UHGV virus genome: UHGV-0239440
DNA: 25,919 nucleotides
Source: a virus
Strand: one strand, 5' to 3'
In this document: positions 10,186-11,980 of the stretch, one piece after another
Layout: the number at the start of each line of letters is the position of its first letter
Position numbering within the stretch: position 1 is the stretch's first letter
The notes under the pieces: model-generated
Told to the model about the DNA's origin: nothing
What the model saw: the letters and a program-made list of their open reading frames with translations, nothing else
Database searches by the model: none
Program-made: the position numbers and the translations under genes

Positions 10186-10261
10186 GGAAGTGTAGCAGAA
10201 TGGTGATGCGGCAGACTTTTAATCTGACAGGCGATGGGTTCGAATCCCTCCACTTCTACCA
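10186..10261 (+). tRNA. tRNA-Lys (anticodon TTT)
   Basis: Acceptor GGAAGTG/CACTTCT (G1-U72 wobble); anticodon loop CTTTTAA; T-loop TTCGAAT; CCA encoded. Confidence 0.75.
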
Positions 10262-10265
10262 ATAT

Positions 10266-10342
10266 GGTTCAGTCGCAGATAAGGTAATGCAGGGGTCTCA
10301 TAAGCCCTATGAATGTGGGTTCAATTCCCATCTGAACCTCCA
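10266..10342 (+). tRNA. tRNA with CAT anticodon (Met or Ile2)
   Basis: Acceptor GGTTCAG/CTGAACC perfect; anticodon stem GGGGT/GCCCT loop CTCATAA; T-loop TTCAATT. Confidence 0.7.
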
Positions 10343-10358
10343 ATACGTTGGTGATATT

Positions 10359-10844
10359 ATGTTTTGTGCTAATAAAGATTGTGGCAACAAAGCCGTTAAA
10401 GGTGGGAAATATTGCTCACGCTCTTGCGCTGCAAAGGTAAACAACAAGAGTCATCCAAAAAGAAGACAAGAAGGTTCTTGTCATTCATGTGGAAAGCAAA
10501 CACCAAAATCAAGAAAGTATTGTGATGAATGTATTTCAAATGGTATTCTGAAACAATACAAAAACCCTGATGAAGAAAAGAAAGCGAAGTCACAACACGT
10601 TAAAAAGTCTCGTGACAAACTTAAGAGGGTTTTAGTTGATTACAAAGGTGGTTGTTGCTCAATTTGTGGATACAATAAGTGCATAAAGGCTTTAGAGTTT
10701 CACCACTTAGACCCCAATACAAAGGACTTCACAGTAGGACAAAAACACTTCTCTATAGAGGTAATGAAGTCTGAAGTTGATAAGTGTGTATTACTGTGTG
10801 CAAATTGCCACAGAGAGGTACACGAAGGGGTAACAATGCTGTGA
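10359..10844 (+). CDS. HNH endonuclease with N-terminal Cys-rich zinc-binding region (161 aa)
   Basis: C-terminal CSICGYNKCIKALEFHHLDPNTKDF...CVLLCANCHREVHEG is a classic HNH motif; N-terminal CxxxC/CxxC pairs; ORF track start at 10200 rejected because it runs through two tRNA genes; ATG at 10359 has a GGTGA RBS. Confidence 0.8.
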   Translation: MFCANKDCGNKAVKGGKYCSRSCAAKVNNKSHPKRRQEGSCHSCGKQTPKSRKYCDECISNGILKQYKNPDEEKKAKSQHVKKSRDKLKRVLVDYKGGCCSICGYNKCIKALEFHHLDPNTKDFTVGQKHFSIEVMKSEVDKCVLLCANCHREVHEGVTML

Positions 10845-10913
10845 AAGCACATATGGATGTGCATTCGGCTGATAACCGAAAGGCAGAAGGTTCGAATCCT
10901 TCTCACAGTACCA
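10838..10913 (+). tRNA. tRNA-Ile (anticodon GAT)
   Basis: Acceptor GCTGTGA/TCACAGT; D-stem GCAC/GTGC; anticodon stem TTCGG/CCGAA loop CTGATAA; 5-prime end overlaps last 7 nt of HNH ORF. Confidence 0.8.
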
Positions 10914-10928
10914 ATTTCAATAAAGTTG

Positions 10929-10957
10929 TTGACATTAACATGTGACCACTTTATAGT
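10929..10957 (+). promoter_or_regulatory. sigma70-type promoter inside tRNA island
   Basis: TTGACA (10929-10934), 17-nt spacer, TATAGT (10952-10957); AAAGTTG upstream as in other copies. Confidence 0.6.
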
Positions 10958-11124
10958 AACCTTAGTTTTCGTTGCGTAGCGTCTATTTTGCAAATTTAAA
11001 ATAAATGCAAACGACAATGTTTTTCTGGCAGTAGCTTGATAGGCTAAACACCAGTGAGGTCTTCCAATCCCTCATCAAAGAATTTGGCGTACTAGCCCAC
11101 GGTATGATTAATAAGGTGGGCATC

Positions 11125-11154
11125 TTTAAGGGTTTTTTAAGAGAGTCTTTAAAG
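11125..11154 (+). repeat. hairpin element, copy C (7 nt upstream of tRNA-Arg TCT)
   Basis: TTTAAGGGTTTTTTAAGAGAGTCTTTAAAG, homologous to copy B. Confidence 0.55.
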
Positions 11155-11160
11155 ATTAAT

Positions 11161-11237
11161 GCACCCTTAGTTCAACTGGACAGAACAAATGACTTCTAAT
11201 CATTAGGTTACAGGTTCGAATCCTGTAGGGTGTGCCA
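11161..11237 (+). tRNA. tRNA-Arg (anticodon TCT)
   Basis: Acceptor GCACCCT/AGGGTGT; anticodon stem AATGA/TCATT loop CTTCTAA; T-arm ACAGG-TTCGAAT-CCTGT. Confidence 0.8.
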
Positions 11238-11379
11238 AATAGTTAGCAGATTGCTTAGACGACCTTATCGGGTCTCCGTGTAAGGGGGTGGTCTGTATCT
11301 CATGTTTTCCAGAACATGTAAATAATCTGAGAAGGGGCTTTACAGTGTTGCGAAAATACGGTAAGCTTCGAATTATAGT

Positions 11380-11462
11380 GTGGGACGATGTTAAGACTCT
11401 AAGGCATGAGCAACGGCCTCCAAAACCGTTTCAAAGTGGTTCAACTCCTCCGTCCCATGCCA
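11380..11462 (+). tRNA. atypical tRNA-like gene (anticodon loop CTCCAAA resembles tRNA-Trp); possible pseudo-tRNA
   Basis: 7-bp acceptor GTGGGAC/GTCCCAT ending GCCA; anticodon hairpin ACGGC-CTCCAAA-ACCGT; but D region about 7 nt too long and T-stem pairs only 3/5. Confidence 0.3.
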
Positions 11463-11475
11463 AAGTCTTATTAGG

Positions 11476-11565
11476 GGTAGGTAGCGGCTAATGGTAGCCA
11501 AACTGTCTTGAAAACAGTTGCCACTGTAGAGATACGGTGAGGGTTCGACTCCTTTACTTACCGCC
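11476..11565 (+). tRNA. tRNA-Ser (anticodon TGA), class II
   Basis: ~88 nt; acceptor GGTAGGT/ACTTACC; anticodon stem AACTGT/ACAGTT loop CTTGAAA; long variable arm; T-loop TTCGACT. Confidence 0.7.
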
Positions 11566-11784
11566 TAATAAGATTTTAGAGCCAAGCTTCATTCGGATGC
11601 TGCTTTGGTATCCCTCGTGTATTGTCGTACACAAGTAAAGCACCTAGTAGGTGTCACGGAGAAGAGATAATATCAAGCTCTCCAAAGGTTCTAGTCACCG
11701 GATTAAACAAGACTATGCAAAGACCTATTTAGGTCTTTTTAGAGGGCTTCTAAGGTTATTACAGCTTGTTGTGGAACCTTGTTG

Positions 11785-11812
11785 CTTAGGTTCTTAGAAG
11801 TTCTCTAAAAAG
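11785..11812 (+). repeat. hairpin element, copy D (8 nt upstream of tRNA with TAG anticodon)
   Basis: CTTAGGTTCTTAGAAGTTCTCTAAAAAG, more diverged. Confidence 0.45.
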
Positions 11813-11819
11813 ATTTAAT

Positions 11820-11897
11820 GGGAGATTGACGGTAATTGGTAAACCTATCTCGCTTAGAACGAGATGTTTGAGGGTTCGAATCCCTTGTCTCCTACCA
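11820..11897 (+). tRNA. tRNA with anticodon TAG (leucine anticodon) but short variable loop
   Basis: Acceptor GGGAGAT/GTCTCCT (two G-U); anticodon stem ATCTCG/CGAGAT loop CTTAGAA; variable loop only 4-5 nt; discriminator A; 78 nt. Confidence 0.55.
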
Positions 11898-11904
11898 AAT
11901 TAAT

Positions 11905-11980
11905 GCAGGTGTAGCAAAATGGTTATGCGGCTGACTCTTAATCAGTAAGACGATTGGTTCAATTCCCTCCACCTGTACCA
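11905..11980 (+). tRNA. tRNA-Lys-like (anticodon CTT), paralog of 10186-10261
   Basis: Nearly identical D- and T-arms to tRNA-Lys(TTT); anticodon stem CTGA/TCAG with loop CTCTTAA. Confidence 0.65.

What the first reader, a model, noticed from the sequence alone, without database searches (positions are those of the whole stretch)
10186..11980. Paralogous tRNA-Lys pair differing in the anticodon loop (TTT and CTT)
The genes at 10186-10261 and 11905-11980 share nearly identical D- and T-arms but have anticodon loops CTTTTAA versus CTCTTAA. tRNA-Lys(UUU) is the classic target of anticodon nucleases, so a second Lys-like tRNA with an altered loop could be a nuclease-resistant substitute as well as a decoder of AAG.
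Basis: partly seen in the sequence, partly recalled or inferred. Interest (0 to 1): 0.55.

Follow-up and report, generated by a model that had tools for sequence, protein, structure and literature searches.

The report
Felix O1-type phage lysine tRNA pair
The two lysine tRNA genes are real and are copies of one another, but they are long-annotated genes of Felix O1-like phages, and the CTT copy is best explained as a reader of the AAG codon that the host has no dedicated tRNA for, not as a stand-in that escapes tRNA-cutting defences.

Summary
Observation confirmed. tRNA-Lys(TTT) at 10186-10261 and tRNA-Lys(CTT) at 11905-11980 are called by ARAGORN and by Rfam (54.4 bits each). Their anticodon loops are CTTTTAA and CTCTTAA. 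They are the most similar pair among the 26 tRNAs of the cluster (61/76), share a rare 1-nt T-stem bulge and differ by three compensated base pairs.

The window is a Felixounavirus. About 255 phage records hold both genes, which Felix O1 and Bas63 annotate, and a 2025 paper on phage Sf14 already discusses Lys-CTT as an AAG decoder absent from the host.

Interpretation partly supported. The AAG-decoder half fits: 42% of Lys codons here are AAG, and AAG usage tracks Lys-tRNA content across related clusters. The nuclease-resistant-substitute half is weak. A C34 tRNA cannot read AAA, which is 58% of Lys codons. The CTT copy also keeps the exact PARIS/AriB cleavage site of host tRNA-Lys (UAAUC|A). 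Only the TTT copy differs there (A41U).

New details:
- The TTT gene of this lineage looks like a CTT-type body with a changed wobble base.
- Recombination between the Lys genes recurs in relatives.
- This window's CTT copy has a private, destabilising T-stem substitution.

Verdict: ordinary and already known. No cleavage data exist.

The parts
10186..10261 (+). tRNA-Lys(UUU), 76 nt with encoded CCA. Anticodon TTT at 10218-10220, loop CTTTTAA identical to the host's, A73, G1.U72, G27.A43 mismatch at the top of the anticodon stem, A29-U41 pair (10213/10225).
   Evidence: ARAGORN; Rfam 54.4 bits with alignment; 194 phage records at >=99% identity; stem-loop comparison.
11905..11980 (+). tRNA-Lys(CUU), 76 nt with encoded CCA. 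Anticodon CTT at 11937-11939, loop CTCTTAA, A73, G1.U72, U29-A41 pair (11932/11944). Positions 36-41 read UAAUC|A, as in E. coli tRNA-Lys.
   Evidence: ARAGORN; Rfam 54.4 bits with alignment; 256 phage records with a match, 255 of them at 95-99% identity and none at >=99%.
10235..10235 (+). Bulged T in the 5' strand of the Lys-TTT T-stem (GA-T-GGG pairing with CCCTC).
   Evidence: The cmscan alignment shows it as an insert. The base varies T/C among relatives while the flanking pairs stay intact.
11954..11955 (+). T-stem bulge of Lys-CTT (11954), followed by a private G->T substitution (11955) that turns the G51-C63 pair into U.C.
   Evidence: cmscan flags the non-standard pair. All 25 Lys-CTT copies in 25 relatives have G here, and no phage record reaches 99% identity. 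The cloverleaf energy is -13.8 against -18.4 kcal/mol for the family consensus.
9003..14731 (+). The tRNA cluster that holds the pair: 26 tRNAs with one U34 tRNA per four-codon box, G34 tRNAs for the NNY boxes, and U34+C34 pairs for Lys, Gln and Leu(UUR). Interspersed with an HNH endonuclease gene and small ORFs.
   Evidence: syntenic annotation in Felix O1, Michonne and Bas63.

Best explanation
The two genes are the Lys isoacceptor pair of the near-complete tRNA set carried by Felix O1-like phages (Ounavirinae). tRNA-Lys(CUU) gives the phage a dedicated reader of AAG. Its enterobacterial hosts lack such a tRNA and must read AAG by wobble with tRNA-Lys(mnm5s2UUU). Phage genes use AAG about twice as often as hosts or TTT-only phages do. 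tRNA-Lys(UUU) adds AAA-reading capacity.

In the Felixounavirus/Mooglevirus lineage the two genes are true paralogs. The UUU gene sits at the slot conserved across the subfamily, just before Met-Ile, but has a CTT-type body. This points to duplication or gene conversion followed by a change at the wobble position.

Shown here: the gene calls, the paralogy, conservation across relatives, absence of the CUU tRNA from the host, and the link between codon usage and tRNA content. Inferred: charging by host LysRS (both genes have U35, U36 and A73), an actual gain in translation, and the direction of descent.
For: - Gene calls and structure. There are three fully compensated pairs between the paralogs (2:71, 4:69, 29:41) and 91.8% of cells are paired, against 38-54% when the partners are slid, so both are maintained as folded tRNAs.
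- Conservation: both genes are in about 255 phage records. Lys-CTT is at its slot in all 25 relatives whose fetched DNA covers that slot. A TTT+CTT pair also occurs in Mooglevirus, Kolesnikvirus, Pectobacterium phage Arno18 and L042.
- Host gap: E. coli tRNA-Lys(UUU) is in 5426/5426 genomes, with no C34 version and no homolog of the phage CTT gene. The same is stated for S. flexneri in PMC12482277.
- Codon use: AAG is 204 of 488 Lys codons (0.42) in the window and 0.64 in the capsid gene. Across clusters the AAG fraction is 0.20-0.30 where only TTT is present (T5 0.30 at GC 0.39), 0.44-0.60 where both are present (window 0.44 at GC 0.39) and 0.84-0.96 where only CTT is present, while GAG stays near 0.3. 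PMC12482277 reports a median AAG RSCU of 0.778 in phage Sf14 against 0.462 in its host.
- General pattern: U34/C34 pairs also exist for Gln and Leu(UUR), and Leu-CAA/Leu-TAA is the second most similar pair at 0.738.
- Lineage: the window's TTT gene is 0.80 identical to its CTT paralog and 0.70 to Arno18's CTT gene, but only 0.65 to the TTT genes of Ea_Tu10 and Arno18, no closer than to E. coli tRNA-Lys (0.67).
Against: - No expression, charging or translation data exist for these tRNAs.
- Demand alone does not predict the set: GAG (134 codons) is used more than CAG (113) or TTG (63), yet there is no Glu(CUC) tRNA.
- The codon/tRNA association rests on about nine lineages, is confounded by GC content in the CTT-only group, and does not give the causal direction.
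- Bas63 tRNAs were mostly dispensable on four lab strains (PMC11482910), so any translational benefit is small or conditional.
- In Sf14 a high AAG RSCU did not track a high tRNA adaptation index.
- This window's CTT allele has a destabilising T-stem change.
Confidence: 0.7

Rival explanations
1. tRNA-Lys(CUU) is a substitute that escapes Lys-specific anticodon nucleases such as PrrC or RloC, because it lacks the modified wobble U they recognise, and so it keeps phage translation going when host tRNA-Lys(UUU) is cut.
For: - PrrC cleaves 5' of mnm5s2U34, and the anticodon sequence and wobble modification are among its main recognition cues (PMC1950546, PMC3025547).
- In yeast, overexpressing tRNA-Lys(UUU) but not tRNA-Lys(CUU) relieved hypomorphic PrrC mutants, which marks UUU as the target.
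- Phage tRNAs are known to neutralise tRNA-cutting defences (T5 against PARIS).
Against: - C34 reads only AAG, and 58% of Lys codons in the window are AAA, so translation would still stall.
- The CTT copy keeps the exact AriB site UAAUC|A, and AriB does not use position 34, since it also cuts Thr(UGU) and Asn(GUU).
- There is no C34 partner for Glu(UUC), RloC's main target in E. coli cells.
- The same U34/C34 design occurs for Leu(UUR), for which none of the papers read here reports a nuclease.
- No experiment exists, and the Sf14 study left Lys-CTT out of its nuclease analysis.
Confidence: 0.1
2. The UUU copy, not the CUU copy, is the nuclease-escape variant. A UUU anticodon placed on a foreign CTT-type body would give an AAA/AAG reader that nucleases specific for host tRNA-Lys, such as AriB, fail to recognise. 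That body has a short D-loop lacking U17, a bulged T-stem and a flipped 29:41 pair that makes position 41 a U.
For: - At the AriB site the TTT copy reads UAAUC|U, against the host's UAAUC|A. A41C substantially inhibits AriB and U16C impairs it.
- All four phage tRNA-Lys(UUU) genes compared (window, Ea_Tu10, Arno18, T5) differ from E. coli somewhere in positions 39-41, whereas the CTT genes of the window and Arno18 do not.
- The TTT gene has a CTT-lineage body rather than the more host-like body seen in Ea_Tu10 (0.74 identical to E. coli).
Against: - A41U itself has not been tested, and U39, the strongest determinant, is retained.
- Stem sequences differ between any two diverged tRNAs, so a change somewhere in 39-41 is expected by chance.
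- The anticodon loop is identical to the host's, so PrrC-type recognition should be unaffected.
- Two natural relatives do without the TTT gene: L004 by deletion and L010 by conversion to CTT.
- Bas63 tRNAs were mostly nonessential, although no PARIS-carrying host was tested.
Confidence: 0.15
3. Both genes are simply part of a self-sufficient decoding set that keeps late translation running when host tRNAs decay during infection (the 'all-destructive infection' model). On this view there is no selection specific to Lys.
For: - The cluster is close to a minimal complete set: one U34 tRNA per four-codon box, G34 tRNAs for the NNY boxes, and only Trp missing.
- PMC12482277 argues for this model in the related phage Sf14.
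Against: - A minimal set would not need a C34 Lys tRNA, since U34 can read both codons.
- The added CTT gene, conserved across four Ounavirinae lineages despite turnover in sequence and position, points to specific value of the AAG reader.
- This model overlaps with the best explanation rather than excluding it.
Confidence: 0.3
4. In this particular genome the CTT gene is a weakened or decaying allele, or carries a sequencing error, because of the private G->T change in the T-stem.
For: - No phage record reaches 99% identity to it, and none of the 25 relative copies carries the change.
- The cloverleaf loses 4.6 kcal/mol and is no longer the predicted minimum-energy fold.
Against: - Rfam still scores it 54.4 bits.
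- The same substitution occurs in the TTT paralog of another phage (L003), so it may be tolerated.
- Tertiary contacts and modifications are not modelled.
Confidence: 0.15

Closest known systems
tRNA-Lys genes of Felix O1, Bas63 (JohannRWettstein) and the Moogle-like phages Sf14 and Michonne
   Same: These are the same two genes at the same two slots: Asp...Lys-TTT-Met-Ile and Leu(TAG)-Lys-CTT-Ala-Gly. The TTT gene is 100% identical in Bas63 and the CTT gene 98.7% identical in Michonne. Bas63's record labels them 'codon recognized: AAA' and 'AAG'. PMC12482277 discusses Lys-CTT as absent from the host and matched by higher AAG use.
   Different: Only the private T-stem G->T at 11955 in this window. 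None of the papers read here, including the Sf14 study, mentions the paralogy, the shared T-stem bulge or the gene-conversion variants.
Phage T5 tRNA-Lys(UUU), which neutralises PARIS (AriB)
   Same: A tRNA-Lys encoded in a large tRNA cluster of a virulent coliphage, with substitutions in the anticodon stem relative to the host.
   Different: T5 has a single Lys gene (UUU) carrying U39A and A41C, and its resistance is shown experimentally (PMC11464382, PMC12409363). Here the TTT copy has only A41U, the CTT copy has no change at the site, and nothing has been tested. T5's tRNA is 0.59-0.61 identical to the window's genes, which is background level.
Phage tRNAs with anticodon-loop mutations proposed to evade host tRNases (van den Berg et al. 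2023)
   Same: The general idea that phage tRNAs replace host tRNAs depleted by nucleases.
   Different: That model relies on loop changes beside an unchanged anticodon. The window's TTT loop (CTTTTAA) is identical to the host's, and the CTT gene changes the anticodon itself and therefore what it decodes.
T4 Pnk/Rnl1 repair of PrrC-cleaved tRNA-Lys
   Same: It counters the same classic Lys-specific nuclease.
   Different: It works by repair, not replacement. No RNA ligase is annotated in Bas63, its 'polynucleotide kinase' has no Pfam match, and its ligase matches the ATP-dependent DNA ligase domain.

Membership tests
Bacterial-type elongator tRNA (Rfam RF00005) | A cloverleaf that scores above the family's gathering threshold. 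| tested here: met
   54.4 bits against 29 for both genes. Both depart from the consensus by a 1-nt T-stem bulge.
tRNA-Lys isoacceptors | Anticodon UUU or CUU in a 7-nt loop with U33 and A37. | tested here: met
   Loops CUUUUAA and CUCUUAA.
tRNA-Lys isoacceptors | LysRS identity elements: U35, U36 and discriminator A73 (from established knowledge of E. coli LysRS, not tested here). | tested here: met
   Both sequences have U35, U36 and A73 before the encoded CCA. PMC12482277 reports that tRNAscan-SE isotype models disagree with the anticodon for both Lys tRNAs of Sf14.
tRNA-Lys isoacceptors | Actual charging with lysine. | not testable with these tools
   Needs an aminoacylation assay or charged-tRNA sequencing.
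Nuclease-evading phage tRNA (T5 tRNA-Lys type) | It duplicates the decoding of the host tRNA that the nuclease destroys. | tested here: not met
   This applies to the CTT copy. The host has no CUU tRNA, and C34 cannot read AAA, which is 58% of Lys codons. The TTT copy does meet this feature.
Nuclease-evading phage tRNA (T5 tRNA-Lys type) | A substitution at a mapped nuclease determinant relative to the host tRNA. | tested here: inconclusive
   At the AriB site the CTT copy is identical to the host (UAAUC|A) and the TTT copy has A41U. Both retain U16 but lack U17 because the D-loop is short. At the PrrC site the TTT loop is identical to the host's, and the CTT copy has C34.
Nuclease-evading phage tRNA (T5 tRNA-Lys type) | Demonstrated resistance to cleavage and rescue of infection. 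| not testable with these tools
   I found no published test for any Felixounavirus tRNA.

The most novel reading that the evidence does not exclude
The Felixounavirus tRNA-Lys(UUU) is a 're-bodied' tRNA. On this reading an ancestral, host-like phage tRNA-Lys(UUU) was overwritten by the CTT-type scaffold, which has a short D-loop without U17, a bulged T-stem and a flipped 29:41 pair that makes position 41 a U. Only the wobble base was reset to U. The result reads AAA and AAG but is invisible to nucleases that recognise the body of host tRNA-Lys, such as PARIS AriB, while the CUU paralog takes the AAG load. Ongoing gene conversion between the two genes (L010, L043) would then be a way to keep reshuffling tRNA bodies under pressure from defence systems.
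Probability: 0.12. Interest if true: 0.5.

Novelty: already known. Interest (0 to 1): 0.2.

Why it matters
The finding matters little as it stands. The genes are annotated in Felix O1, Bas63 and more than 200 other genomes. The one unusual point, a CUU lysine tRNA that the host lacks, has already been published for a sister genus with the same decoding explanation.

The useful outcome is corrective. If anyone tests Felix O1-like phages against Lys-tRNA-cutting defences, the gene to delete first is the UUU copy at 10186-10261, which carries the A41U change at the AriB cut site. The CUU copy is the second priority.

The recurrent recombination between tRNA paralogs at T-loop motifs is a small, concrete example of how phage tRNA clusters are remodelled.

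Tried and rejected
- **Y RNA or other structured RNA in the spacers.** The protein just upstream was reported as Ro60-like in Bas63. A permissive Rfam scan of 8800-14900 found only tRNAs, one sub-threshold tRNA-like element and chance-level hits.
- **The L010 chimera in sequenced isolates.** No phage record matches it at >=99% identity. It therefore rests on one metagenome-derived contig, and an assembly artefact cannot be excluded.
- **A T4-style tRNA repair module in Felixounavirus.** Bas63's annotated 'polynucleotide kinase' has no Pfam hit, its ligase matches the ATP-dependent DNA ligase domain, and its 'putative phosphatase' is a Macro domain. There is no support, but absence is not proven.
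- **Published tests of Felixounavirus or Bas63 against PARIS or other tRNases.** None found. Retron Eco2 gave no defence against most Felixounavirus species, which says nothing specific about Lys.
- **Primary PrrC data on C34 substrates.** The Shterman 1995 paper is not held in the library and the Jiang 2001/2002 papers were not looked up, so the PrrC argument rests on secondary statements in PMC3025547 and PMC1950546.
- **Single-sequence MFE folding.** It did not recover the cloverleaf for either window gene. That is usual for tRNAs, so the covariance-model alignment and the pair counts were used instead.
- **The first Pfam call.** It failed because of a wrong ORF start for the HNH gene and was repeated with 10359-10844.
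Full report
**What is there**

ARAGORN finds 26 tRNA genes on the + strand between 9003 and 14731. Rfam's tRNA model scores both at 54.4 bits against a gathering score of 29. The anticodon loops are CTTTTAA and CTCTTAA.

**Are they paralogs?**

The two genes are 61/76 identical. That is the highest of all 325 pairs among the 26 tRNAs, whose mean identity is 0.576 with SD 0.049.

They share unusual features:
- a one-nucleotide bulge in the 5' strand of the T-stem, which the covariance-model alignment shows as an insert in both;
- a G1.U72 wobble pair;
- a short 7-nt D-loop.

Across seven distinct sequence variants from this window and its relatives, three base pairs differ between the TTT and CTT types by changes on both sides: 2:71 G-C/C-G, 4:69 A-U/G-C, and tRNA positions 29:41 A-U/U-A. 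In the bulged cloverleaf 91.8% of cells are paired, against 38-54% when the partners are slid. Both genes are therefore maintained as folded tRNAs.

The 15 differences are spread over all regions. The D- and T-arms are similar, but only slightly more so than the rest of the gene.

**Where the window comes from**

The cluster matches 349 phage records, 195 of them over at least 80% of its length. These are Felix O1 and its relatives, the Felixounavirus group within Ounavirinae.

- Felix O1 annotates two tRNA-Lys genes at the syntenic slots, and so does Citrobacter phage Michonne.
- The BASEL phage Bas63 labels them 'codon recognized: AAA' and 'codon recognized: AAG'.
- Each Lys gene is found in about 255 phage records.
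- A 2025 paper on Shigella phage Sf14, a Moogle-like myovirus of the same subfamily, has a section on tRNA-Lys-CTT. It notes that the host lacks this tRNA, reports a median AAG RSCU of 0.778 in the phage against 0.462 in the host, and explicitly leaves Lys-CTT out of its test of the anticodon-nuclease idea (PMC12482277).

The finding itself is therefore already known.

**Host side**

[quoted passage not shown] No genome carries a C34 version of it, and none holds anything resembling the phage CTT gene.

**Decoding explanation**

In the window's likely genes 204 of 488 Lys codons (0.42) are AAG, and the major capsid gene has 16 of 25.

Terminase-anchored relatives allow a comparison across tRNA clusters:

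| Lys tRNA genes in the cluster | AAG fraction of Lys codons |
|---|---|
| TTT only | 0.20-0.30 (T5 0.30 at GC 0.39) |
| TTT and CTT | 0.44-0.60 (this window 0.44 at GC 0.39) |
| CTT only | 0.84-0.96 |

GAG stays near 0.3 in the low-GC groups, so the shift is specific to Lys and is not a general third-position drift. The sample is small, about nine lineages. The CTT-only group is GC-rich, and the direction of causation is open.

The Lys pair is also one of three U34/C34 pairs in the cluster, along with Gln and Leu(UUR). Leu-CAA/Leu-TAA is the second most similar pair at 0.738. Duplication followed by a wobble change therefore looks like the general way this cluster makes its NNR pairs.

**Nuclease explanation**

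Three points count against Lys-CTT as a nuclease-resistant substitute.

1. By standard wobble rules, C34 reads only AAG. The 58% of Lys codons that are AAA would still stall if tRNA-Lys(UUU) were destroyed.
2. The best-mapped case points the other way.
   - PARIS AriB cuts E. coli tRNA-Lys between C40 and A41 within U36-A-A-U-C|A41. It depends on U39, A41 and U16.
   - AriB also cuts Thr(UGU) and Asn(GUU), so position 34 is not a determinant.
   - T5's resistant tRNA-Lys carries U39A and A41C (PMC11464382, PMC12409363).
   - In this window the CTT copy reads UAAUC|A, exactly as the host does. The TTT copy reads UAAUC|U.
3. There is no C34 partner for Glu(UUC), which is RloC's main target in E. 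coli cells.

What remains in favour is PrrC. [quoted passage not shown] In yeast, only tRNA-Lys(UUU) overexpression, not CUU, relieved hypomorphic PrrC mutants (PMC3025547, PMC1950546). A C34 tRNA may therefore well escape PrrC, but it would rescue only AAG codons.

The phage TTT loop is identical to the host loop, so it offers no loop-level escape of the kind proposed by van den Berg et al..

Bas63's tRNAs were mostly nonessential on four laboratory strains. The authors regard them as a conditional toolbox, but no host carrying a tRNase was tested (PMC11482910). I found no published test of a Felixounavirus against a Lys-specific nuclease.

**Evolution of the pair**

Distant Ounavirinae also carry TTT plus CTT, but there the two genes are unlike each other and have normal T-arms:
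- Erwinia phage Ea_Tu10 and its relatives: 0.65 identical;
- Pectobacterium phage Arno18: 0.61;
- contig L042: 0.75.

The window's TTT gene is closest to its own CTT paralog (0.80) and next to Arno18's CTT gene (0.70). It is no closer to the TTT genes of Ea_Tu10 and Arno18 (0.65 each) than to E. coli tRNA-Lys (0.67). It still sits at the conserved slot just before Met-Ile. Arno18's CTT gene shares a 36-nt 5' core with the window's CTT gene at 97% identity.

Support is moderate, since only a few outgroup lineages are available.

Recombination between the Lys genes is visible in relatives:
- L010 has a chimera at the TTT slot, with the TTT acceptor stem and the CTT core, including the CTT anticodon. 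It comes from one metagenome-derived contig and is not seen in isolates.
- L004 has lost the TTT gene through a deletion between an intergenic T-arm-like motif and the TTT T-loop.
- L043 carries a CTT-5'/TTT-3' fusion joined at the T-loop, where its relative L042 has the two genes side by side.

Lys-CTT is present at its slot in all 25 relatives whose fetched DNA covers that slot. Lys-TTT is missing or converted in two relatives whose cluster is otherwise complete.

**This window's allele**

The CTT gene here has T at 11955, where all 25 relative copies have G. No phage record reaches 99% identity to it, and every full-length hit listed matches at 98.7% or lower. The change breaks the G51-C63 pair next to the bulge. 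It lowers the cloverleaf energy from -18.4 to -13.8 kcal/mol, so the cloverleaf is no longer the predicted optimum. The same substitution occurs in the TTT paralog of L003. It may be tolerated, mildly harmful, or a sequencing error.

**Verdict**

- Observation: confirmed.
- Interpretation: half right. AAG decoder, yes. Nuclease-resistant substitute, not supported for the CTT copy.
- If any Lys gene here is shaped by nucleases, the TTT copy is the better candidate. That is speculative, and I put it at about 0.12-0.15.
- The finding is an already annotated and already discussed feature of a well-known phage group, so interest is low.

Noticed in passing
window 10233-10250 and 11952-11969 (T-arms of the two Lys tRNAs): Both Lys tRNAs have a one-nucleotide bulge in the 5' strand of the T-stem (GA-U-GGG pairing with CCCUC). 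The bulged base varies U/C among relatives while the flanking pairs are kept. The Lys tRNAs of more distant Ounavirinae have ordinary T-arms. This is an unusual tRNA architecture and its functional meaning is unknown.
   Followed up: partly
window 11955: A private G->T in the Lys-CTT T-stem, absent from the 25 relative copies and from every phage record. It costs about 4.6 kcal/mol of cloverleaf stability. The same change is seen in the TTT paralog of locus L003.
   Followed up: yes
L010:5516-5591; L004:5328-5720; L043:7734-7809 compared with L042:7606-7762: Recombination between tRNA genes at T-loop motifs. L010 has a TTT/CTT chimera. L004 has a deletion that removes Lys-TTT. L043 has a CTT-TTT fusion whose acceptor stem looks mismatched.
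   Followed up: partly
window 9919-9983: A sub-threshold tRNA-like element (Rfam tRNA 24.7 bits, cut-off 29) in the 456-nt spacer before Lys-TTT. Its perfect T-arm, GAAGG-TTCGATT-CCTTC, is the upstream junction of the L004 deletion. It may be a decayed tRNA gene.
   Followed up: partly
window 7422-8837 (+): A 471-aa protein with DUF2828 and DUF7788 lies directly upstream of the tRNA cluster. Its position and length match Bas63 gp130, which a preprint describes as structurally Ro60-like and as a counter to the Ppl defence system, with the suggestion that some neighbouring 'tRNAs' could be Y RNAs. No Y-RNA family was detected here.
   Followed up: partly
window 10914-11160, 11238-11475, 11566-11819: Three spacers of roughly 240-250 nt between tRNA genes, with no ORF that fills them and no convincing Rfam match. 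T5 has annotated stable RNAs of unknown function in the same kind of position.
   Followed up: no
window 10359-10844 (+): A 161-aa ORF between tRNA-Met and tRNA-Ile, annotated as an HNH endonuclease in Felix O1. It has no Pfam hit at E<=0.01, and its stop overlaps the start of tRNA-Ile by 7 nt. Spacing differences among relatives suggest that such endonuclease genes come and go within the cluster.
   Followed up: no
window 12398-12475 and 13458-13536: tRNA-Leu(CAA) and tRNA-Leu(TAA) are the second most similar pair in the cluster (59/80). This second U34/C34 pair probably also arose by duplication and a wobble change.
   Followed up: no
L008:5811 (slot of tRNA-Arg(TCT), window 11161-11237): One close relative has a tRNA called Trp(CCA) where this window has Arg(TCT). 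Trp is the only amino acid missing from the window's set. This could be an anticodon switch or a gene replacement.
   Followed up: no
L129:15554-16249 (Bas63, outside the window): The Bas63 gene annotated 'polynucleotide kinase' has no Pfam match at 1e-3, and the 'putative phosphatase' is a Macro domain. The annotation should not be taken as evidence of a tRNA repair pathway.
   Followed up: partly
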